Source: a virus (lineage: Duplodnaviria > Heunggongvirae > Uroviricota > Caudoviricetes). From it: 64,000 nucleotides of DNA. The stretch lies in the IMG/VR virus record IMGVR_UViG_2684623127_000006, one strand, 5' to 3'. The notes under the pieces were generated by a model. It saw only the letters and a list, made by a program, of their open reading frames with translations. It had not been told where the DNA came from and made no database searches. Shown here piece after piece: positions 33,946 through 38,674 of this stretch (the stretch's first letter is position 1; every line of letters begins with the position of its first letter). Both the position numbers and the translations under genes were made by a program.

Positions 33946-36525
33946 TCAGCCTCCTGCATCCCGCCCACGTTTTGCAGCCAGGGTCCAGGCTGATGAATGA
34001 GCTTCTCCGGGTTTATCTTCGGTCATACTGTTGCAGTGCCACAGCGAGCCCCCCCACGTCACCGTATCGCCGGGGTGGTAGGTTTCACCGGCTCTGAACA
34101 CACCGCGGTAGAGCATCACCGGCAGGGAAAATGTTTTTTCCGTACGCTGGCCACTGCTCTGCCGGACCACCACAGAGAACAACCGCTCACCCGTCATGCT
34201 GACGTCAATATCCGCCACCCCGTCAACCAGGCATTCCCATCCCCGCATCCCGTGCGTTTTTTCATACGCCCGCCAGAGTCCGCCCTGGTGTGTGGCATAC
34301 GTGCCCCGGGGAAAGGATTTTTGATCGTCAATGGCGGGGAGTATTTCCAGTGCCGTGGCATCACGCCCGTCCTGCGGAGCCGGCAGGGCACTCACCGCAT
34401 CCAGAACCGCCTTCTGCAGAACATCCGGATCGTAGTCACGACCATCACGCGGAACAGGAATATGGCTTACCGCCTCCTTCACCATCTGTTCAAGCATCGG
34501 ACGCACATCATCCGGGGTGAGACTTTTACCGTCTGCCGGCTGCGGAATATTTGCGACCGCATCATTCACCGCCTTCTGCAGTACTTCCGGATCATAGTCA
34601 CGACCGTCGCGCGGAACAGGGATATGGCTTACCGCCTCCTTCACCATCTGTTCAAGCATCGGACGCACATCATCCGGGGTGAGACTTTTACCGTCCGCCG
34701 GCTGCGGAATATTTGCGACCGCATCATTCACCGCCTTCTGCAGTACTTCCGGATCGTAGTCACGACCATCACGCGGAACAGGGATATGGCTTACAGCCTC
34801 CTTCACCATCTGTTCAAGCATCGGACGCACATCATCCGGGGTGAGACTTTTACCGTCCGCCGGCTGCGGAATATTTGCGACCGCATCATTCACCGCCTGC
34901 TGCAGTACATCCGGATCATAATCACGACCATCACGCGGTACCGGAATGGCCCCCACAGCGTCATCCACCATCGCCTGCAGAACCGGACGCACCTCATCCA
35001 CCGTCACATGCTTCTGTAATACCACAGACTGAGAAGCCAGTTTTTCTTCAAACGTTTGTGCCTGCGCGGCTATTTTCTCCTCAAATGTGCGCTGTAAATC
35101 CGCCAGCACTGTGGAAAATTCTTCTCCCAGTGCACGAATAATGGACAGTTCCCGTTCCGTCATTTTCTCAGTATCCCCCCTGAACATCGCTTTCACCGCA
35201 TCATGCTCTGTTTCACTGATTGCCTTATTACCGTCAGATGCGCCGTCAGGCAGCTGTGATGAAACTGTTTTCCCGGCAGACGCGAACGGATCCTCACGGG
35301 CATCACGACGGGACAGCGCCTCCAGACTGTAGTTCTGCTGCTGAAGATACAGTGCATCACCGCCGGCCAGGGGCGGCAGGTTCTCCCGTTTACGGGCCTC
35401 ATTGGGCGTGAGAAGCGTATTTTTCACCGCATCCCCCAGCGTTTTCATGCGCCGCTCACTGTCCATTCTCAGCAGCGTGGTGACATCAAATTCTGTACTC
35501 TCGTTTTCCCCCGTTTCCAGCGCCTCATCCAGTAACAGTTCAATGGACTCAATCAGCGTCTGCAGGCACTGGGAATAATACTGCTGCTCCAGCGCCTCCA
35601 CGTTGTCACTGGAAGGCGGTTGTCCCACGCCAATCTTGTAGGCCGGGACACGGAACACCGAACAGACAATTTCAGCGGTCATCTTCAGTTGTTCCACCGT
35701 CTGCGCATCCACCGGTGAAAACGTCGTGGGGTTGTATTTTGCCCCGTTGCTCAGAATGGCCGTTTTCCCCGCATTTTCGCCTGTATACCCGCTGTCCCAG
35801 TTGCTCTTCAGTTTTTTCGCATTTTCTTCCGTAATACTGCCGGGGATCTCAATCACCCCGGACGGCCTGCCGCCATTTCTGAAAAAAGACGTCGAATTTT
35901 CCTGAATATGATGCCCCTGCGTGGCCGCCAGCCCGGCGGCATACACCGGCGGCAATCCTATAAGCGGATGAAAAAAACAGTTAAACCGGTCGTGGATCAC
36001 TTCCCGGGCAGGCACCGTCACCGCCTCCGTGATCCCGCAGTTCCGGTCCGGCGTGATGCGGTAGAACACCTCGCCGTCATCCGCCACCAGAGGTTCAACC
36101 CGGCTCCAGTCCAGAATACGCAGTTCTTTGATCTGCCACCGGGCATTACGGATTTTCAGCACCACCGTATTGCCATGACGCAGTTTGGCGTTCAGCCACA
36201 GTTCAAAAAACTGGATGCGGTTCTGCTGGGCGTTGGGACGACGACAGAGGCGGGCAATATCCCCCCGGCGCGTTTCCCTGCGTATCCCATGCGCATCCGT
36301 CTGCATAAGACGCAGCCGCATTTTGGCGATATCCTGGGATATCAGCGAAATACATGCAAACACCGCATGAAAGGAGAGGACGGCTTCAGGATCGGCTTTC
36401 ACGCCCTGCTGCCAGGCGCCGGAAAAGGGCTCAGCCACCGCCTGAAACAGGCTGGTCCAGCCCGCCTCTCTTACGTCACGTCCTGATTTCTGGTTTTTTC
36501 GGGTTCGCCGTAAAAGGTTCCACAT
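33946..36525 (-). CDS. HK97-family portal protein with long C-terminal extension containing 54-aa tandem repeats
   Basis: N-terminal 450 aa portal-like (…FFRNGGRPSGVIEIPGSITEENAKKLKSNW…); GGAG SD; 859 aa total. Confidence 0.7.
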   Translation of the reverse strand: MWNLLRRTRKNQKSGRDVREAGWTSLFQAVAEPFSGAWQQGVKADPEAVLSFHAVFACISLISQDIAKMRLRLMQTDAHGIRRETRRGDIARLCRRPNAQQNRIQFFELWLNAKLRHGNTVVLKIRNARWQIKELRILDWSRVEPLVADDGEVFYRITPDRNCGITEAVTVPAREVIHDRFNCFFHPLIGLPPVYAAGLAATQGHHIQENSTSFFRNGGRPSGVIEIPGSITEENAKKLKSNWDSGYTGENAGKTAILSNGAKYNPTTFSPVDAQTVEQLKMTAEIVCSVFRVPAYKIGVGQPPSSDNVEALEQQYYSQCLQTLIESIELLLDEALETGENESTEFDVTTLLRMDSERRMKTLGDAVKNTLLTPNEARKRENLPPLAGGDALYLQQQNYSLEALSRRDAREDPFASAGKTVSSQLPDGASDGNKAISETEHDAVKAMFRGDTEKMTERELSIIRALGEEFSTVLADLQRTFEEKIAAQAQTFEEKLASQSVVLQKHVTVDEVRPVLQAMVDDAVGAIPVPRDGRDYDPDVLQQAVNDAVANIPQPADGKSLTPDDVRPMLEQMVKEAVSHIPVPRDGRDYDPEVLQKAVNDAVANIPQPADGKSLTPDDVRPMLEQMVKEAVSHIPVPRDGRDYDPEVLQKAVNDAVANIPQPADGKSLTPDDVRPMLEQMVKEAVSHIPVPRDGRDYDPDVLQKAVLDAVSALPAPQDGRDATALEILPAIDDQKSFPRGTYATHQGGLWRAYEKTHGMRGWECLVDGVADIDVSMTGERLFSVVVRQSSGQRTEKTFSLPVMLYRGVFRAGETYHPGDTVTWGGSLWHCNSMTEDKPGEAHSSAWTLAAKRGRDAGG
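34290..34990. repeat. Tandem 162-bp repeats, about 4.3 near-identical copies, inside the portal gene
   Basis: Period measured from repeated CACGCGGAACAGG anchors at 34448, 34610, 34772, 34934. Confidence 0.85.
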
Positions 36526-36736: not shown

Positions 36737-38674
36737 TCAGCCGCCGGACGCACTGCCGTAGTTCACTCCGGTGATCACCGCCACCGCCGCAGTACGGCGA
36801 CGACGCCAGTTGATCCAGCGCTCCGCACGGATGGCCACGCTGCCTGTCTGGAACATGGAAACCAGCTCCACCGGGGACGGCGTGGTACTGTCGCCGCCCG
36901 GCTCAGACTGCATTTCCAGTGATGCCTCGCGGGACATATCCACTGCCACGCCGCCGTCATCCGCCAGATAAATATCCGGGGCATTCACCAGCACCAGCTG
37001 GTCACCCACGTACTGGGAGACAATCACCGGCAGCCCCTGGAAGGAGCCACCCAGCAGGGTCATGTCCGGGTATTCCTTCTGACCCAGCGCATTTTTACGC
37101 ATGGACAGTGCCAGGGCATTGGTGCTGGACATCAGCCAGACCGCACCGGTGGGCTGCAGGTTTGCTGCCACAAACTGTCCAAACGCAGCCTCGGCATCCG
37201 CATCCGGGTTACCGGTTGATGCCGTGCCCTTCACATCATGGGTGATGGACGCCGGGGAGACATCTGCCACTGCGGCTTTTTTCGGGTCCACAAAGTCTGT
37301 ATCCAGACGCGCCACCACCGCTTCCGCCAGCGCATTACGGACCAGTGCATCAGCAGCCGGACTGGAAAAACGGATCAATTCTTCCGTCAGTACCGCAATG
37401 GCCGACACCTTCGCATGACTGAAGGTGATGGATTCAAAATCAAACTTCGTCAGGGGTTTTGCCTTACCCTCACCCACCCAGCCGGCAGCACCGCCGGACA
37501 CCTGGGCGTGCACACGGATATTGAACGGCACCTGACGAAGTGCAGGGATCCCGCCCTGACCAAATCGCCCGATAATGGTCTGCGGACGCAGGTAATCAAT
37601 AAAGTCCTGTGCGTATTCCTGATATTCAGACAGGCTGCCTGCCCACTGCGGATCCGTGGTGGTCCCCGCGCCCACTGCCGATTTCAGGACATGATGCAGA
37701 CGACTGTCATCCGGATACTGACGACGGGCCACTTCCAGGGCTTCAGATCGGACGCCTTTAGCCGCAGCCAGCGATTTGGCAAAGCGGGCGAAGCCAATCC
37801 CCTTATCCAGTTTCTGCTCCACACGGATCACCGGCGCAGAAGCCACCGCGGCCACATTCCCGTTACCGGCCTGTTTCACCGGCTGCGCCGTGGCGGCCTT
37901 ACCGGCTTCCAGTTCACGCAGGCGCTTCAGGTGCGCATCCACCTGACGGATTTCCGCTGCGGTGTTGTCGTAATGCTCTTCCTCCTCCACATCCAGCGTG
38001 CGCCCTTCCTCTGCGGCTTTGGTCATGACCTCCTCAAGGGAGGCTGCCAGCGCTGCACGCTTGTTTTCAAAACTTTTAATCTGTTCGCCAATATTCATTA
38101 TGGTCTTTTCCTTATGAAAAACGGTTGTTGACTGTGCCGCAGCGCCGGCAGAAGATGCGATTTTCACCACCGGTTTCCGGTTGCCGGACGCGGCAGAAAA
38201 CGGGCGGTCGTAAGATTTAATGGTCCGGATGGTGCATTCCGCATTCGCGGGCACGGTGACGGCAGACACCTCCATCAGTTCCCAGCGCAGAAAATGCAGT
38301 CCGCCTCCGTCCAGAAAGGTGTATTCATGGGGACGGAAGCCCACGGACAGCCCCCTGACCAGCCCGGTCTTAATGGCCGCCCAGACCTCATCCAGCCGGG
38401 CAGCCAGTTGCGACGGCATATCCGGTACGGGCTTCACCAGTGTTGCCGTGATTTCCAGCCCTTCGCTGACCCGGCGCACCGTACACTGCCCCACCGGGCG
38501 GGAATGGTCATGCTGCCAGAGAAACGGGATCGCACTGCCAAACTCCGCGCCCTCCGGCTCCAGGATGTCACCATCCCGATCCGGAGAAGGCGTTGACGCA
38601 ATCCCGGTGATCACCCGTTCATCCTCACTGAAGGATTTCACCGTCAGCAGGGAACAGGCCCGTTTAAGAGTCAC
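36737..38674 (-). CDS. Prohead protease (S78-type) fused to HK97-fold major capsid protein
   Basis: N-terminal …VITGIASTPSPDRDGDILEPEGAEF…; GTG start with AGGAGG SD; 645 aa. Confidence 0.7.
   Translation of the reverse strand: MTLKRACSLLTVKSFSEDERVITGIASTPSPDRDGDILEPEGAEFGSAIPFLWQHDHSRPVGQCTVRRVSEGLEITATLVKPVPDMPSQLAARLDEVWAAIKTGLVRGLSVGFRPHEYTFLDGGGLHFLRWELMEVSAVTVPANAECTIRTIKSYDRPFSAASGNRKPVVKIASSAGAAAQSTTVFHKEKTIMNIGEQIKSFENKRAALAASLEEVMTKAAEEGRTLDVEEEEHYDNTAAEIRQVDAHLKRLRELEAGKAATAQPVKQAGNGNVAAVASAPVIRVEQKLDKGIGFARFAKSLAAAKGVRSEALEVARRQYPDDSRLHHVLKSAVGAGTTTDPQWAGSLSEYQEYAQDFIDYLRPQTIIGRFGQGGIPALRQVPFNIRVHAQVSGGAAGWVGEGKAKPLTKFDFESITFSHAKVSAIAVLTEELIRFSSPAADALVRNALAEAVVARLDTDFVDPKKAAVADVSPASITHDVKGTASTGNPDADAEAAFGQFVAANLQPTGAVWLMSSTNALALSMRKNALGQKEYPDMTLLGGSFQGLPVIVSQYVGDQLVLVNAPDIYLADDGGVAVDMSREASLEMQSEPGGDSTTPSPVELVSMFQTGSVAIRAERWINWRRRRTAAVAVITGVNYGSASGG

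What the first reader, a model, noticed from the sequence alone, without database searches (positions are those of the whole stretch)
33946..38674. Portal gene with recent 162-bp tandem repeat expansion and unusual head gene order
The 859-aa portal ORF has a portal core followed by about 4.3 nearly identical 162-bp (54-aa) tandem repeats and a further C-terminal domain. Near-identity at DNA level implies recent expansion and likely copy-number variation. The order terminase large, protease-capsid fusion, portal also differs from the usual HK97 order of terminase, portal, protease, capsid.
Basis: seen in the sequence. Interest (0 to 1): 0.6.

Follow-up and report, generated by a model that had tools for sequence, protein, structure and literature searches.

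The report
Portal fused to its downstream partner gene
The long "portal" gene of this E. coli O157 prophage is two neighbouring phage genes joined by one extra G: an ordinary HK97-type portal and an uncharacterised repeat-containing gene that follows this kind of portal in nearly every related phage examined.

Summary
The 859-aa ORF (33946-36525, minus strand), the 162-bp repeat and the order TerL, protease-capsid fusion, portal are all real. The window is an E. coli O157:H7 lambdoid prophage, 99.5% identical over this gene to Stx2c phage 2851.

The ORF is not a portal that grew extra domains. Residues 1-454 are a complete HK97-family portal. Residues 455-859 are a separate gene, here called X, in most relatives: many other E. 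coli Stx phages, 80 related viral contigs, and about 75 of 78 informative genomes chosen by their portal. There the portal stop overlaps the X start (ATGA). In the window a G5 run has become G6 (35175-35180), which shifts the portal frame into X.

This fused allele is exact in at least 751 complete E. coli genome records, so it is not an assembly error.

The repeats lie in X's spacer. There are four 54-aa units, and only the two inner ones are near-identical (158/162 nt). Copy number ranges from 2 to 5 among E. coli phages, and the inner units evolve in concert.

X consists of a coiled coil, helix-loop repeats and a beta domain ending in a CBM5/12-like fold. It has no curated family and is mislabelled "portal protein". 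At least four further portal-X fusions elsewhere suggest X works tethered to the portal C-terminus. Its function is unproven.

The parts
40396..40959 (-). Terminase small subunit
   Evidence: PF03592 and phrog_641; annotated as such in RefSeq.
38738..40399 (-). Terminase large subunit
   Evidence: TerL_ATPase plus TerL_nuclease domains.
36737..38674 (-). Prohead protease (S78) fused to an HK97-type major capsid protein, 645 aa
   Evidence: PF04586 at aa 48-152 and PF05065 at aa 386-635. TIGR01543 and TIGR01554 also match, with a weak match to NF045541, the fusion-protein model. Both fused and split forms occur in the clade.
36471..36692 (-). Small 73-aa ORF between the capsid and portal genes; it overlaps the portal start by 55 nt
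   Evidence: Annotated as hypothetical. Homologous small ORFs sit at the same place in some relatives. No family match.
33946..36525 (-). The 859-aa fused ORF (portal plus X), including the stop codon
   Evidence: It is 100% identical in at least 15 complete O157 genomes and 99.5% identical in phage 2851.
35164..36525 (-). Portal part, aa 1-454: HK97-family portal core (aa 43-420) plus its own C-terminal tail
   Evidence: Unfused relatives have portals of about 445-454 aa that end at this point.
35175..35180 (-). G6 homopolymer; the extra G relative to G5 alleles is what fuses the two reading frames
   Evidence: Sequence read. G6 is found in the window, 2851, YYZ-2008 and 705R7. G5 is found in 1717, PPompW_699, Stx1_EH1995, EH1904, JNE122398 and BP-4795, which have two CDSs.
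35160..35163 (-). Ancestral ATGA stop/start overlap: ATG is Met455, the X start; TGA is the former portal stop, now out of frame
   Evidence: Junction comparison with L003, L005, L006, L013, L032 and L074 and the window sequence.
33946..35163 (-). X part, aa 455-859 (405 aa): a separate gene in most relatives
   Evidence: 148 of the 149 newly returned representatives among the top 150 hits lack a portal core. phrog_1289 is the stand-alone family. Separate CDSs are annotated in phages 1717, PPompW_699, Stx1_EH1995, BP-4795 and FSL SP-016.
35017..35163 (-). N-terminal coiled-coil helix of X (X aa 3-49)
   Evidence: AF2 gives a helix at 3-49 with pLDDT of about 90. A heptad pattern is visible in the sequence by my own inspection.
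34375..35022 (-). Four 162-bp (54-aa) tandem units. Each unit is two helix-loop sub-motifs of 29 and 25 aa, with loop motif IPxPxDGxD.
   Evidence: The unit identity matrix shows concerted evolution of the inner units.
33949..34371 (-). C-terminal all-beta domain of X (portal aa 719-859)
   Evidence: AF2 mean pLDDT 94.7. This is the most conserved part of the family.
33967..34113 (-). CBM5/12-like sub-domain at the tip of X
33617..33943 (-). Head-tail connector (gp6-like), the gene that follows X throughout the clade
   Evidence: PF05135 and TIGR01560; synteny.

Best explanation
Shown. The ORF is an in-frame fusion of two adjacent phage genes.
- The first (aa 1-454) is a complete HK97-family portal.
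- The second (aa 455-859, called X here) is a conserved, unnamed gene that lies directly after this kind of portal. Its start normally overlaps the portal stop (ATGA).
- In this allele one extra G in a G5 run, 17 nt before that overlap, moves the ribosome from the portal frame into the X frame. The ancestral ending RGILRK-stop becomes RGDTEK-Met455, and each portal subunit carries X covalently.

Shown. The 162-bp repeat belongs to X, not to the portal.
- It is the spacer between X's N-terminal coiled coil and its C-terminal beta domain.
- It changes copy number (2-5 units in E. coli phages; from about none to more than 20 helix-loop motifs in other lineages).
- Its inner units are homogenised. 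I infer unequal recombination as the cause.

Inferred, about 0.45 likely. X normally docks by its coiled coil onto the flexible C-terminal tail of the portal, on the capsid-interior (crown) side. It holds a small CBM5/12-like domain on a tether of variable length. The fusion merely makes that tether covalent, which is why it is tolerated. That domain may bind DNA inside the head, or the cell wall after ejection; this is not known.
For: Evidence for the fusion:
- A close prophage (L003) and all 80 viral contigs found with a stand-alone X show TerS-TerL-protease/MCP-portal(444-484 aa)-X(300-405 aa)-connector wherever the contig reaches upstream. The portal and X overlap by 4 nt.
- Junction alignment shows the relatives ending RGLLTK* with ATGA. 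The window has CAGGGGGGAT and reads through.
- E. coli phages 1717, PPompW_699, Stx1_EH1995 and BP-4795 have G5 and are annotated with two CDSs. EH1904 and JNE122398 also have G5, which gives two ORFs, but their records are unannotated. 2851, YYZ-2008, 705R7 and the window have G6 and a single CDS.

Evidence the allele is real:
- The exact 55-mer with G6 is in 751 complete-genome records, and the exact G5 54-mer in 219.
- G6 alleles share a nearly identical portal core, with 0-1 differences in 385 codons, which points to one origin.

Evidence X is a family of its own:
- 5542 cluster representatives match at E<=1e-3, and 148 of the 149 newly returned top representatives lack a portal core.
- When 80 species-level genomes were picked by their portal, X was adjacent in 70, plus 4 more by inspection, fused in 1, and absent only where the region is deleted.
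- omega is 0.13-0.5 for X against G5 alleles (up to about 0.6 in the few-difference G6 comparisons), and about 0.1 for the portal.

Evidence on the repeats:
- Searches give the units and the identity matrix.
- X is 353, 405-407 or 461 aa in the loci read in full, and tblastn X spans of 882, 1206 and 1368 nt indicate 2, 4 and 5 units.

Evidence on architecture:
- AF2 models and the CBM5/12 fold matches.

Evidence for tethering to the portal:
- Further fusions with unrelated junctions occur in P0215 (1237 aa), L146/L147 (671 aa), Brevundimonas L187 (614 aa) and Moraxella phage Mcat9. In Mcat9 only the CBM-like domain follows the portal core.
- No disrupted X was seen in the intact modules surveyed.
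Against: - Nothing here shows that X is in the virion, that it binds the portal, or where it sits.
- The interior location rests on the general rule, from solved portal structures, that the portal C-terminus lies in the crown inside the capsid. It was not modelled for this protein.
- X's architecture is that of an external fibre: a coiled coil, a segmented spacer, a sugar-binding-type tip, and collagen-like tails in some homologues. Its weak fold matches are to tail fibres.
- Overlapping genes fuse easily after a 1-nt indel, so some fusions could be harmless accidents.
- The prophage in this window appears defective: the L-like tail ORF is short and no K or I ORF lies between it and J. This copy therefore says nothing about function. 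That fused-allele phages such as 2851 and YYZ-2008 are viable is taken from my knowledge of the literature, not tested here.
- The repeat region is modelled with low confidence, pLDDT 35-65.
Confidence: 0.8

Rival explanations
1. X is an external neck or head fibre, like the T4 fibritin whiskers, that helps adsorption. Under this reading the G6 fusion traps X inside the head and is a tolerated loss of an accessory function.
For: - X has a fibre-like build: a coiled coil, segmented helix-loop repeats and a CBM5/12-like tip.
- Some homologues end in collagen-like G-X-Y tails, and there are weak matches to tail-fibre PHROGs.
- The gene sits next to the head-tail connector genes.
- Repeat number is very free, as expected for a spacer that is not confined.
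- omega for X is higher than for the portal.
Against: - X is present in essentially every intact module of this portal clade, which is unlike the patchy distribution of accessory fibres.
- Five lineages fuse it to the portal C-terminus. In Mcat9 the fusion is a domain-level rearrangement, not a simple indel.
- Fusions were seen while no disrupted X was seen.
- The portal C-terminus points into the capsid (general knowledge).
Confidence: 0.25
2. One reading: a single native portal protein that acquired an internal repeat expansion and an extra distal domain.
For: The ORF is continuous and is annotated as one "phage portal protein" in RefSeq and in phage 2851. phrog_2271 is an 859-position profile of exactly this architecture.
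Against: - Solved HK97-type portals end where residue 420 aligns.
- The remaining sequence begins with the start Met of stand-alone homologues.
- The split state is found in all outgroups and in most diverged E. coli alleles. The fused alleles form one tight haplotype.
Confidence: 0.04
3. The junction is a homopolymer sequencing or assembly error, and the two genes are really separate in this strain.
For: The difference is one base in a G run, a classic error site. Many draft assemblies break or mis-join within the repeat, giving partial and odd-length proteins.
Against: The exact G6 55-mer occurs in 751 complete-genome records. Phage records 2851 and YYZ-2008 also carry G6. By my recollection these were sequenced in 2008, probably by Sanger; this was not checked. 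G6 is linked to one specific portal haplotype.
Confidence: 0.02
4. The G run is a switch. Either slipped-strand mutation (G5<->G6) or ribosomal or transcriptional slippage produces both free and fused X in one phage population.
For: Both G5 and G6 alleles are common in E. coli. In the G6 allele, a +1 slip on AGG-GGG-G would restore the old stop and the ATGA coupling. In a G5 allele, a -1 slip would make the fusion (read from the sequence).
Against: - All G6 alleles examined share one portal haplotype, so there is no sign of recurrent switching.
- A run of 5-6 G is short for phase variation.
- Outgroups have no G run or conserved slippery site at this position.
- No expression data are available.
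Confidence: 0.06

Closest known systems
HK97-family portal proteins (PF04860 / TIGR01537; solved examples HK97 gp3 8cez, 9lbn gp1, RcGTA 6tba)
   Same: Residues 43-420 align to nearly the whole length of the solved portals, with scores far above the curated cut-offs. The gene sits in an HK97-type head module with an HNH gene, TerS, TerL, an S78 protease, an HK97 capsid protein and a gp6-like connector.
   Different: The solved portals are 393-431 aa, against 859 aa here. The excess is a second gene read through. The portal gene lies after the capsid gene rather than before the protease gene.
MuF / SPP1 gp7 minor head proteins. Their genes lie immediately downstream of the portal gene, and gp7 binds the portal inside the capsid (PMC5576092).
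   Same: X occupies the same genomic slot, directly after the portal. It is very widespread, has a variable C-terminal part, and fusions indicate a physical link to the portal. This is the best functional analogy.
   Different: There is no sequence match to PF04233 or PF06152. The build is different: coiled coil, helix-loop repeats and a CBM-like beta domain. No toxin domains are present. Virion location is untested.
CBM5/12 chitin-binding modules (PF02839; 2d49, 1ed7, the ChiB module)
   Different: The score is below Pfam's gathering threshold (19-25 bits against 26.2). The domain is attached to a phage head-module protein rather than to an enzyme, and its ligand is unknown.
Segmented coiled-coil phage fibres (T4 fibritin) and tail-fibre tips carrying small sugar-binding domains (7-7-1, Milano, Pa193 fibres)
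   Same: The overall plan matches: an N-terminal attachment helix, a segmented repetitive shaft of variable length and a small beta tip. There are weak fold matches.
   Different: There is no significant sequence or whole-chain fold similarity; the best Foldseek E-value is 1.5e-3 with a TM-score below 0.3. X is linked to the portal C-terminus, which points into the head.
Prohead protease-major capsid fusion proteins (NCBIfam NF045541 category)
   Same: An S78 protease, a coiled-coil linker and an HK97 capsid domain lie in one 645-aa ORF.
   Different: The ORF scores far below that model's cut-off (54 bits against 525), so it is a different lineage of the same kind of fusion. Split forms occur in the same clade.

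Membership tests
HK97-family portal (PF04860 / TIGR01537) | Sequence match above the curated cut-offs | tested here: met
   PF04860 scores 268.7 bits against 39.1. TIGR01537 scores 345.1 bits against 112.
HK97-family portal (PF04860 / TIGR01537) | Alignment across the whole solved portal chain | tested here: met
   aa 43-420 align to 9lbn residues 50-424 of 431 (E 1e-27). aa 45-400 align to HK97 8cez residues 53-409 of 424.
HK97-family portal (PF04860 / TIGR01537) | Usual gene order: terminase, portal, protease, capsid | tested here: not met
   The order here is TerL, protease-capsid, portal. This order is conserved throughout the clade. Gene order is a habit of the family, not a strict criterion for membership.
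HK97-family portal (PF04860 / TIGR01537) | Dodecameric ring at one capsid vertex | not testable with these tools
   No multimer modelling or particle data were available.
MuF / SPP1 gp7-like portal-adjacent head proteins | Gene immediately downstream of the portal gene | tested here: met
   X overlaps or abuts the portal gene in L003, in 80 viral contigs, in 55 diverse contigs and in about 75 of 78 genomes.
MuF / SPP1 gp7-like portal-adjacent head proteins | MuF domain (PF04233 / PF06152) | tested here: not met
   No such hit for X or for 10 homologues, even at E<=1.
MuF / SPP1 gp7-like portal-adjacent head proteins | Binds the portal and is packaged in the head | not testable with these tools
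   The only support is indirect, from five portal-X fusions.
CBM5/12 carbohydrate-binding module | Pfam PF02839 gathering score | tested here: not met
   19.1-24.8 bits against 26.2 in the window protein and its homologues.
CBM5/12 carbohydrate-binding module | Three-dimensional fold | tested here: met
CBM5/12 carbohydrate-binding module | Binds chitin or a related glycan | not testable with these tools
   No binding assay was possible. Conserved aromatic residues are present.
Phage fibre (fibritin-like or tail-fibre-like) | Significant sequence or fold similarity to a known fibre | tested here: inconclusive
   The best Foldseek hit is the 7-7-1 tail fibre at E 1.5e-3 and TM-score 0.27. phrog_5073 tail-fibre hits appear only in homologues with collagen-like tails.
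Phage fibre (fibritin-like or tail-fibre-like) | Trimeric and exposed on the particle | not testable with these tools
   Only a monomer model was made, and its repeat region has low confidence.
Phase-variable (contingency) homopolymer locus | Recurrent, independent switching of tract length | tested here: not met
   The four G6 alleles examined share one portal haplotype, with 0-1 differences in 385 codons. G5 alleles are diverged, with dS 0.04-0.2. The sample is small.
Protease-capsid fusion protein | S78 protease and HK97 capsid domains in one ORF | tested here: met
   PF04586 at aa 48-152 and PF05065 at aa 386-635. NF045541 is matched only weakly, at 54 bits against a cut-off of 525.

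The most novel reading that the evidence does not exclude
X is an unrecognised, near-universal partner of one large clade of HK97-type portals found across Proteobacteria, in which the capsid gene precedes the portal gene. It would be a fibre-like protein held on the inner (crown) side of the portal, with a spacer of freely variable length and a sugar-binding-type tip. That makes it an internal, portal-tethered appendage with no counterpart in any solved siphophage. Possible roles are organising or sensing the packaged DNA, or leaving with the DNA to bind the cell wall. The current "portal protein" label on thousands of stand-alone X genes, and the "pseudogene" label on split E. 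coli alleles, would both be annotation errors.
Probability: 0.35. Interest if true: 0.7.

Novelty: new variant of a known kind. Interest (0 to 1): 0.45.

Why it matters
**Annotation.**
- The long ORF has served as the reference form of this "portal".
- As a result, stand-alone X genes are named "portal protein" (phrog_1289, RefSeq, phage records).
- The normal two-gene state is called a pseudogene in several Stx phage records. Both labels are misleading.

**Biology.**
- A gene that accompanies one portal clade in nearly every genome sampled, and that has fused to it at least five times, is probably part of how that head works. It nevertheless has no Pfam or NCBIfam family and no experimental study that I could find.
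- The natural G5/G6 pair in inducible Stx phages offers a ready-made experiment on whether X works free, tethered, or not at all.

**Practice.**
- The repeat and the multi-copy prophages break short-read assemblies within this gene.
- Copy number (2-5 units) and G-run length could therefore serve as prophage typing markers in O157 genomes, but only with long reads.

Tried and rejected
- Back-translating the 38-sequence alignment of the X C-terminal domain for a collection scan failed, because no conserved 7-10-column stretch was found. Single proteins and a portal alignment were used instead.
- Literature searches found no description of the fusion, the repeat or X. The terms covered phage 2851/Stx2c, Pankowvirus, portal with tandem repeat, portal with chitin-binding or head fibre, and portal gene fusion. 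One search returned only cancer gene-fusion papers.
- A 2025 paper with virion mass spectrometry of a Pankowvirus (phi330) gives no portal or X peptide data in the text or supplement held here.
- tblastn with P0171, tried in order to surface the three Pseudomonas phage hits, listed only E. coli phages. Those phages were not examined.
- Weak Pfam hits in the repeat region (TetR_C_35, DUF4244, FliG_N) are judged to be noise from short helices. Most fall below their cut-offs. TetR_C_35 reaches its cut-off only as the sum of repeated sub-threshold stretches when X is scanned alone (26.8 bits against 26.7).
- A first dN/dS script mis-registered the C-terminal domain and crashed. It was redone with motif anchors.
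- I considered a programmed frameshift site at the junction and rejected it as the main explanation, because no slippery motif is conserved in outgroups.

Full report
**What the window is.** The region is part of an E. coli O157:H7 lambdoid prophage.
- The 2580-nt ORF is 100% identical in at least 15 complete O157 chromosomes. It is 99.5% identical in Stx2c phage 2851 and Stx2a_WGPS6, both genus Pankowvirus.
- 26.5 kb around it is 99.6% identical to strain 3-5-1.
- All genes discussed are on the minus strand: TerS 40396-40959, TerL 38738-40399, a 645-aa protease-capsid ORF 36737-38674, a 73-aa ORF 36471-36692, the 859-aa "portal" 33946-36525, and a gp6-like head-tail connector 33617-33943.

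**Check of the observation.**
- The ORF is continuous.
- Its first part is an HK97-family portal by every test. PF04860 scores 268.7 bits and TIGR01537 scores 345 bits. Residues 43-420 align to nearly the whole length of the solved portals 9lbn (431 aa) and HK97 8cez (424 aa).
- Tandem Repeats Finder reports period 162, 3.3 copies, 95% matches, score 982.
- In protein register there are four 54-aa units at aa 502-717, window 34375-35022, plus a short partial fifth.
- Units 2 and 3 differ at 4 of 162 nt, all synonymous. Unit 1 is 75% identical to unit 2 and unit 4 is 87% identical to unit 2. "Four nearly identical copies" is therefore overstated.
- Each 54-aa unit is itself two helix-loop sub-motifs of 29 and 25 aa, with the loop motif IPxPxDGxD. 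This comes from inspection of the sequence and the AF2 secondary structure.

**The ORF is two genes.** A search of 1.84 billion cluster representatives with residues 441-859 found 5542 relatives at E<=1e-3.
- Of the 149 newly returned representatives among the 150 best hits, 148 have no portal core. Most start with Met and a similar N-terminal helix.
- The closest stand-alone ones begin MNERELS.../MTEREIA... . This aligns with Met455 of the window ORF (...GDTEK-MTERELSIIRALGEEF).
- In a closely related prophage (L003) and in the 80 viral contigs retrieved with a stand-alone homologue, the order is TerS, TerL, protease-capsid, portal (444-484 aa), X (300-405 aa), connector, wherever the contig reaches upstream. 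The portal stop overlaps the X start by 4 nt.
- At the junction the relatives read ...RGLLTK* with ATGA. The window reads CAG-GGG-GGA-T..., giving RGDTEK-M.
- Removing one G from the run at 35175-35180 restores RGILRK* and the ATGA overlap.
- That G5 sequence is what phages 1717, PPompW_699, Stx1_EH1995, EH1904, JNE122398 and BP-4795 carry. Where those records are annotated, they show two CDSs of 454 and 407-461 aa.
- The window, 2851, YYZ-2008 and 705R7 have G6 and one CDS.

**The fusion is real and has a single origin.**
- The exact 55-mer with G6 is present in 751 complete E. coli genome records. The exact G5 54-mer is present in 219. Both are lower bounds, because flanking variants are not counted.
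- The four G6 alleles compared have almost the same portal core, with 0-1 differences in 385 codons. G5 alleles differ from the window at dS 0.04-0.2.
- This fits one mutation that then spread. It does not fit repeated switching.
- Outgroups in other genera are all split, so the split state is ancestral.

**The repeats.** Among E. coli phage records X has 2, 3, 4 or 5 units.
- The loci read in full give X lengths of 353, 405-407 and 461 aa, for 3, 4 and 5 units.
- The 2-unit form (about 299 aa) is inferred from 882-nt tblastn spans.
- A unit-by-unit identity matrix shows that the first and last units are orthologous between lineages, at 95-99% identity.
- The inner units are more alike within a genome (94-99%) than between lineages (89-92%). 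One phage (JNE122398) is a mosaic.
- This is the signature of continuing unequal exchange within an old array, rather than a single recent expansion.
- Many draft-assembly proteins end or are mis-joined within the array. Short-read copy numbers are therefore unreliable.

**What X looks like.**
- The C-terminal 141 aa fold with high confidence (pLDDT 94.7) into an all-beta domain.
- The full-length model gives a 47-residue N-terminal helix with a heptad pattern. It is followed by eight short helices separated by 12-residue loops of low confidence, and then the beta domain.
- Some homologues end in collagen-like G-X-Y runs.
- X matches no Pfam or NCBIfam model at curated thresholds.
- PHROG 1289 is the stand-alone family. 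It carries the label "portal protein", evidently inherited from the fused E. coli form.

**How tightly X goes with the portal.**
- In 55 further viral contigs found with three distant X proteins, X follows the portal directly wherever upstream sequence exists. The exceptions are one locus with a 3.4-kb insertion and two that are fused.
- In the reverse test, 80 loci from a one-genome-per-species collection, spanning Enterobacterales, Rhizobiales, Sphingomonadales, Pseudomonas and Burkholderiales, were picked by their portal.
  - X was adjacent in 70, and in 4 more on inspection.
  - It was fused in one (Brevundimonas, 614 aa).
  - It was separated in two.
  - Two loci were cut by a contig end.
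  - X was missing only in one Ensifer locus, where the whole region between the portal and the tape-measure gene is deleted.
- The capsid gene lies upstream of the portal wherever upstream sequence was available. It is either fused to the protease or separate.
Protease-capsid fusion is a category NCBIfam already names.

**Other fusions.** Besides the E. coli G6 allele, portal-X fusions with unrelated linkers occur in:
- P0215, 1237 aa, with about 25 repeats of a different type;
- L146/L147, 671 aa;
- Brevundimonas L187;
- Moraxella phage Mcat9, whose 479-aa portal carries only the CBM-like module after a short linker.

No disrupted X was noticed in the intact modules surveyed.

**Most likely mechanism.** Shown: the fusion, its cause, the independence of X as a family, its strict synteny with this portal clade, and the behaviour of the repeats.

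Inferred, about 0.45 likely: X acts at the portal C-terminus.
- By general knowledge of portal structures, the C-terminus lies in the crown, facing the capsid interior.
- X's coiled coil would dock on the portal's flexible C-terminal tail. The repeats would be a spacer whose length is under little constraint. The CBM-like tip would be the working end.
- The fusion makes the link covalent and fixes the ratio at 1:1, which would explain why it is tolerated.
- That fused-allele phages such as 2851 and YYZ-2008 are viable is my recollection of the literature and was not tested here.
- The closest functional analogy is MuF/SPP1 gp7. That gene also sits directly after the portal gene, and gp7 binds the portal inside the head (PMC5576092). 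X has no MuF domain, so it is an analogue, not a member.

**Main rival (about 0.25).** X is an external neck fibre and the fusion is a harmless loss of an accessory function. X's fibre-like build favours this. Its near-universal presence and the repeated fusions, including the domain-level fusion in Mcat9, count against it. An assembly error, a native multi-domain portal and a G-run switch are each unlikely, for the reasons given under the rivals.

**Limits.**
- No experiment or multimer model places X in the particle.
- The prophage in this window seems defective: the L-like tail ORF is short, no K or I ORF lies between it and J, and IS66-like ORFs are nearby. This copy is not evidence of function.
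- The dN/dS values rest on few substitutions and are blurred by recombination.
- The counts of G5 and G6 are exact-match lower bounds.

**Verdict.** The sequence itself is already in databases and is ordinary in E. coli. The useful results are the reinterpretation as a one-base fusion, a correction to widespread annotation, and the recognition of an uncharacterised, portal-linked protein family with a natural fused/unfused pair available for experiment.

Noticed in passing
window 36737-38674 (minus strand): The protease-capsid ORF has an internal Met (TIMNIGEQIKSFENKRAA, about aa 192) at the start of a coiled-coil, scaffold-like segment. The same clade has both fused (644-696 aa) and split (about 200 aa plus 450-510 aa) forms. 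This is a second fuse/split polymorphism in the same head module.
   Followed up: partly
window 36471-36692 (minus strand): A 73-aa ORF lies between the capsid and portal genes and overlaps the annotated portal start by 55 nt. Shorter homologues (about 55 aa) abut the portal start in Salmonella phage FSL SP-016 and in several viral contigs. It matches no family.
   Followed up: partly
window 23272-27400 (minus strand): The tail-tip region looks damaged. The L-like ORF is only 154 aa, and no K or I ORF lies between it and the J-like 1172-aa ORF. The near-identical RefSeq copy is annotated with L incomplete and J frameshifted. The prophage is probably defective.
   Followed up: partly
window 16080-18413 (plus strand): Three consecutive plus-strand ORFs of 133, 115 and 512 aa, in a region where the phage genes run on the minus strand. 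They look like an IS66-family insertion by layout only; they were not scanned.
   Followed up: no
window 307-559 and 48229-48478 (minus strand): There are two clusters of phage-type tRNA genes: Arg-tct with Met/Ile-cat, and Arg-tct, Arg-tcg with Met/Ile-cat. The first 560 nt of the window are 92% identical to the tRNA region of the same prophage type. The window therefore seems to touch a second lambdoid prophage late region.
   Followed up: partly
L093 5294-8186 and L090 9165-9740: In two distant relatives, the genes just after X include sugar- or methyl-transfer-type enzymes (hexapeptide acetyltransferase, MptE-like, methyltransferases), inside the head-tail gene block. They are unexplained. 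They could relate to glycan modification of a virion protein.
   Followed up: no
C-terminal ends of the portals in alignment A3; window aa 440-454: After a Pro/Ala-rich disordered linker, portals of this clade end in a short amphipathic helix (for example MLALLVEKEL, ELIELIQKGL, and AVKAMFRG in E. coli). It is a candidate docking site for the N-terminal helix of X.
   Followed up: no
phage records AP012538, AP012530, NC_049944: Several Stx phage records label this gene "portal protein (pseudogene)". I did not read their sequences. By analogy with the G5 phages examined, these may be the normal two-gene state judged against the fused reference.
   Followed up: partly
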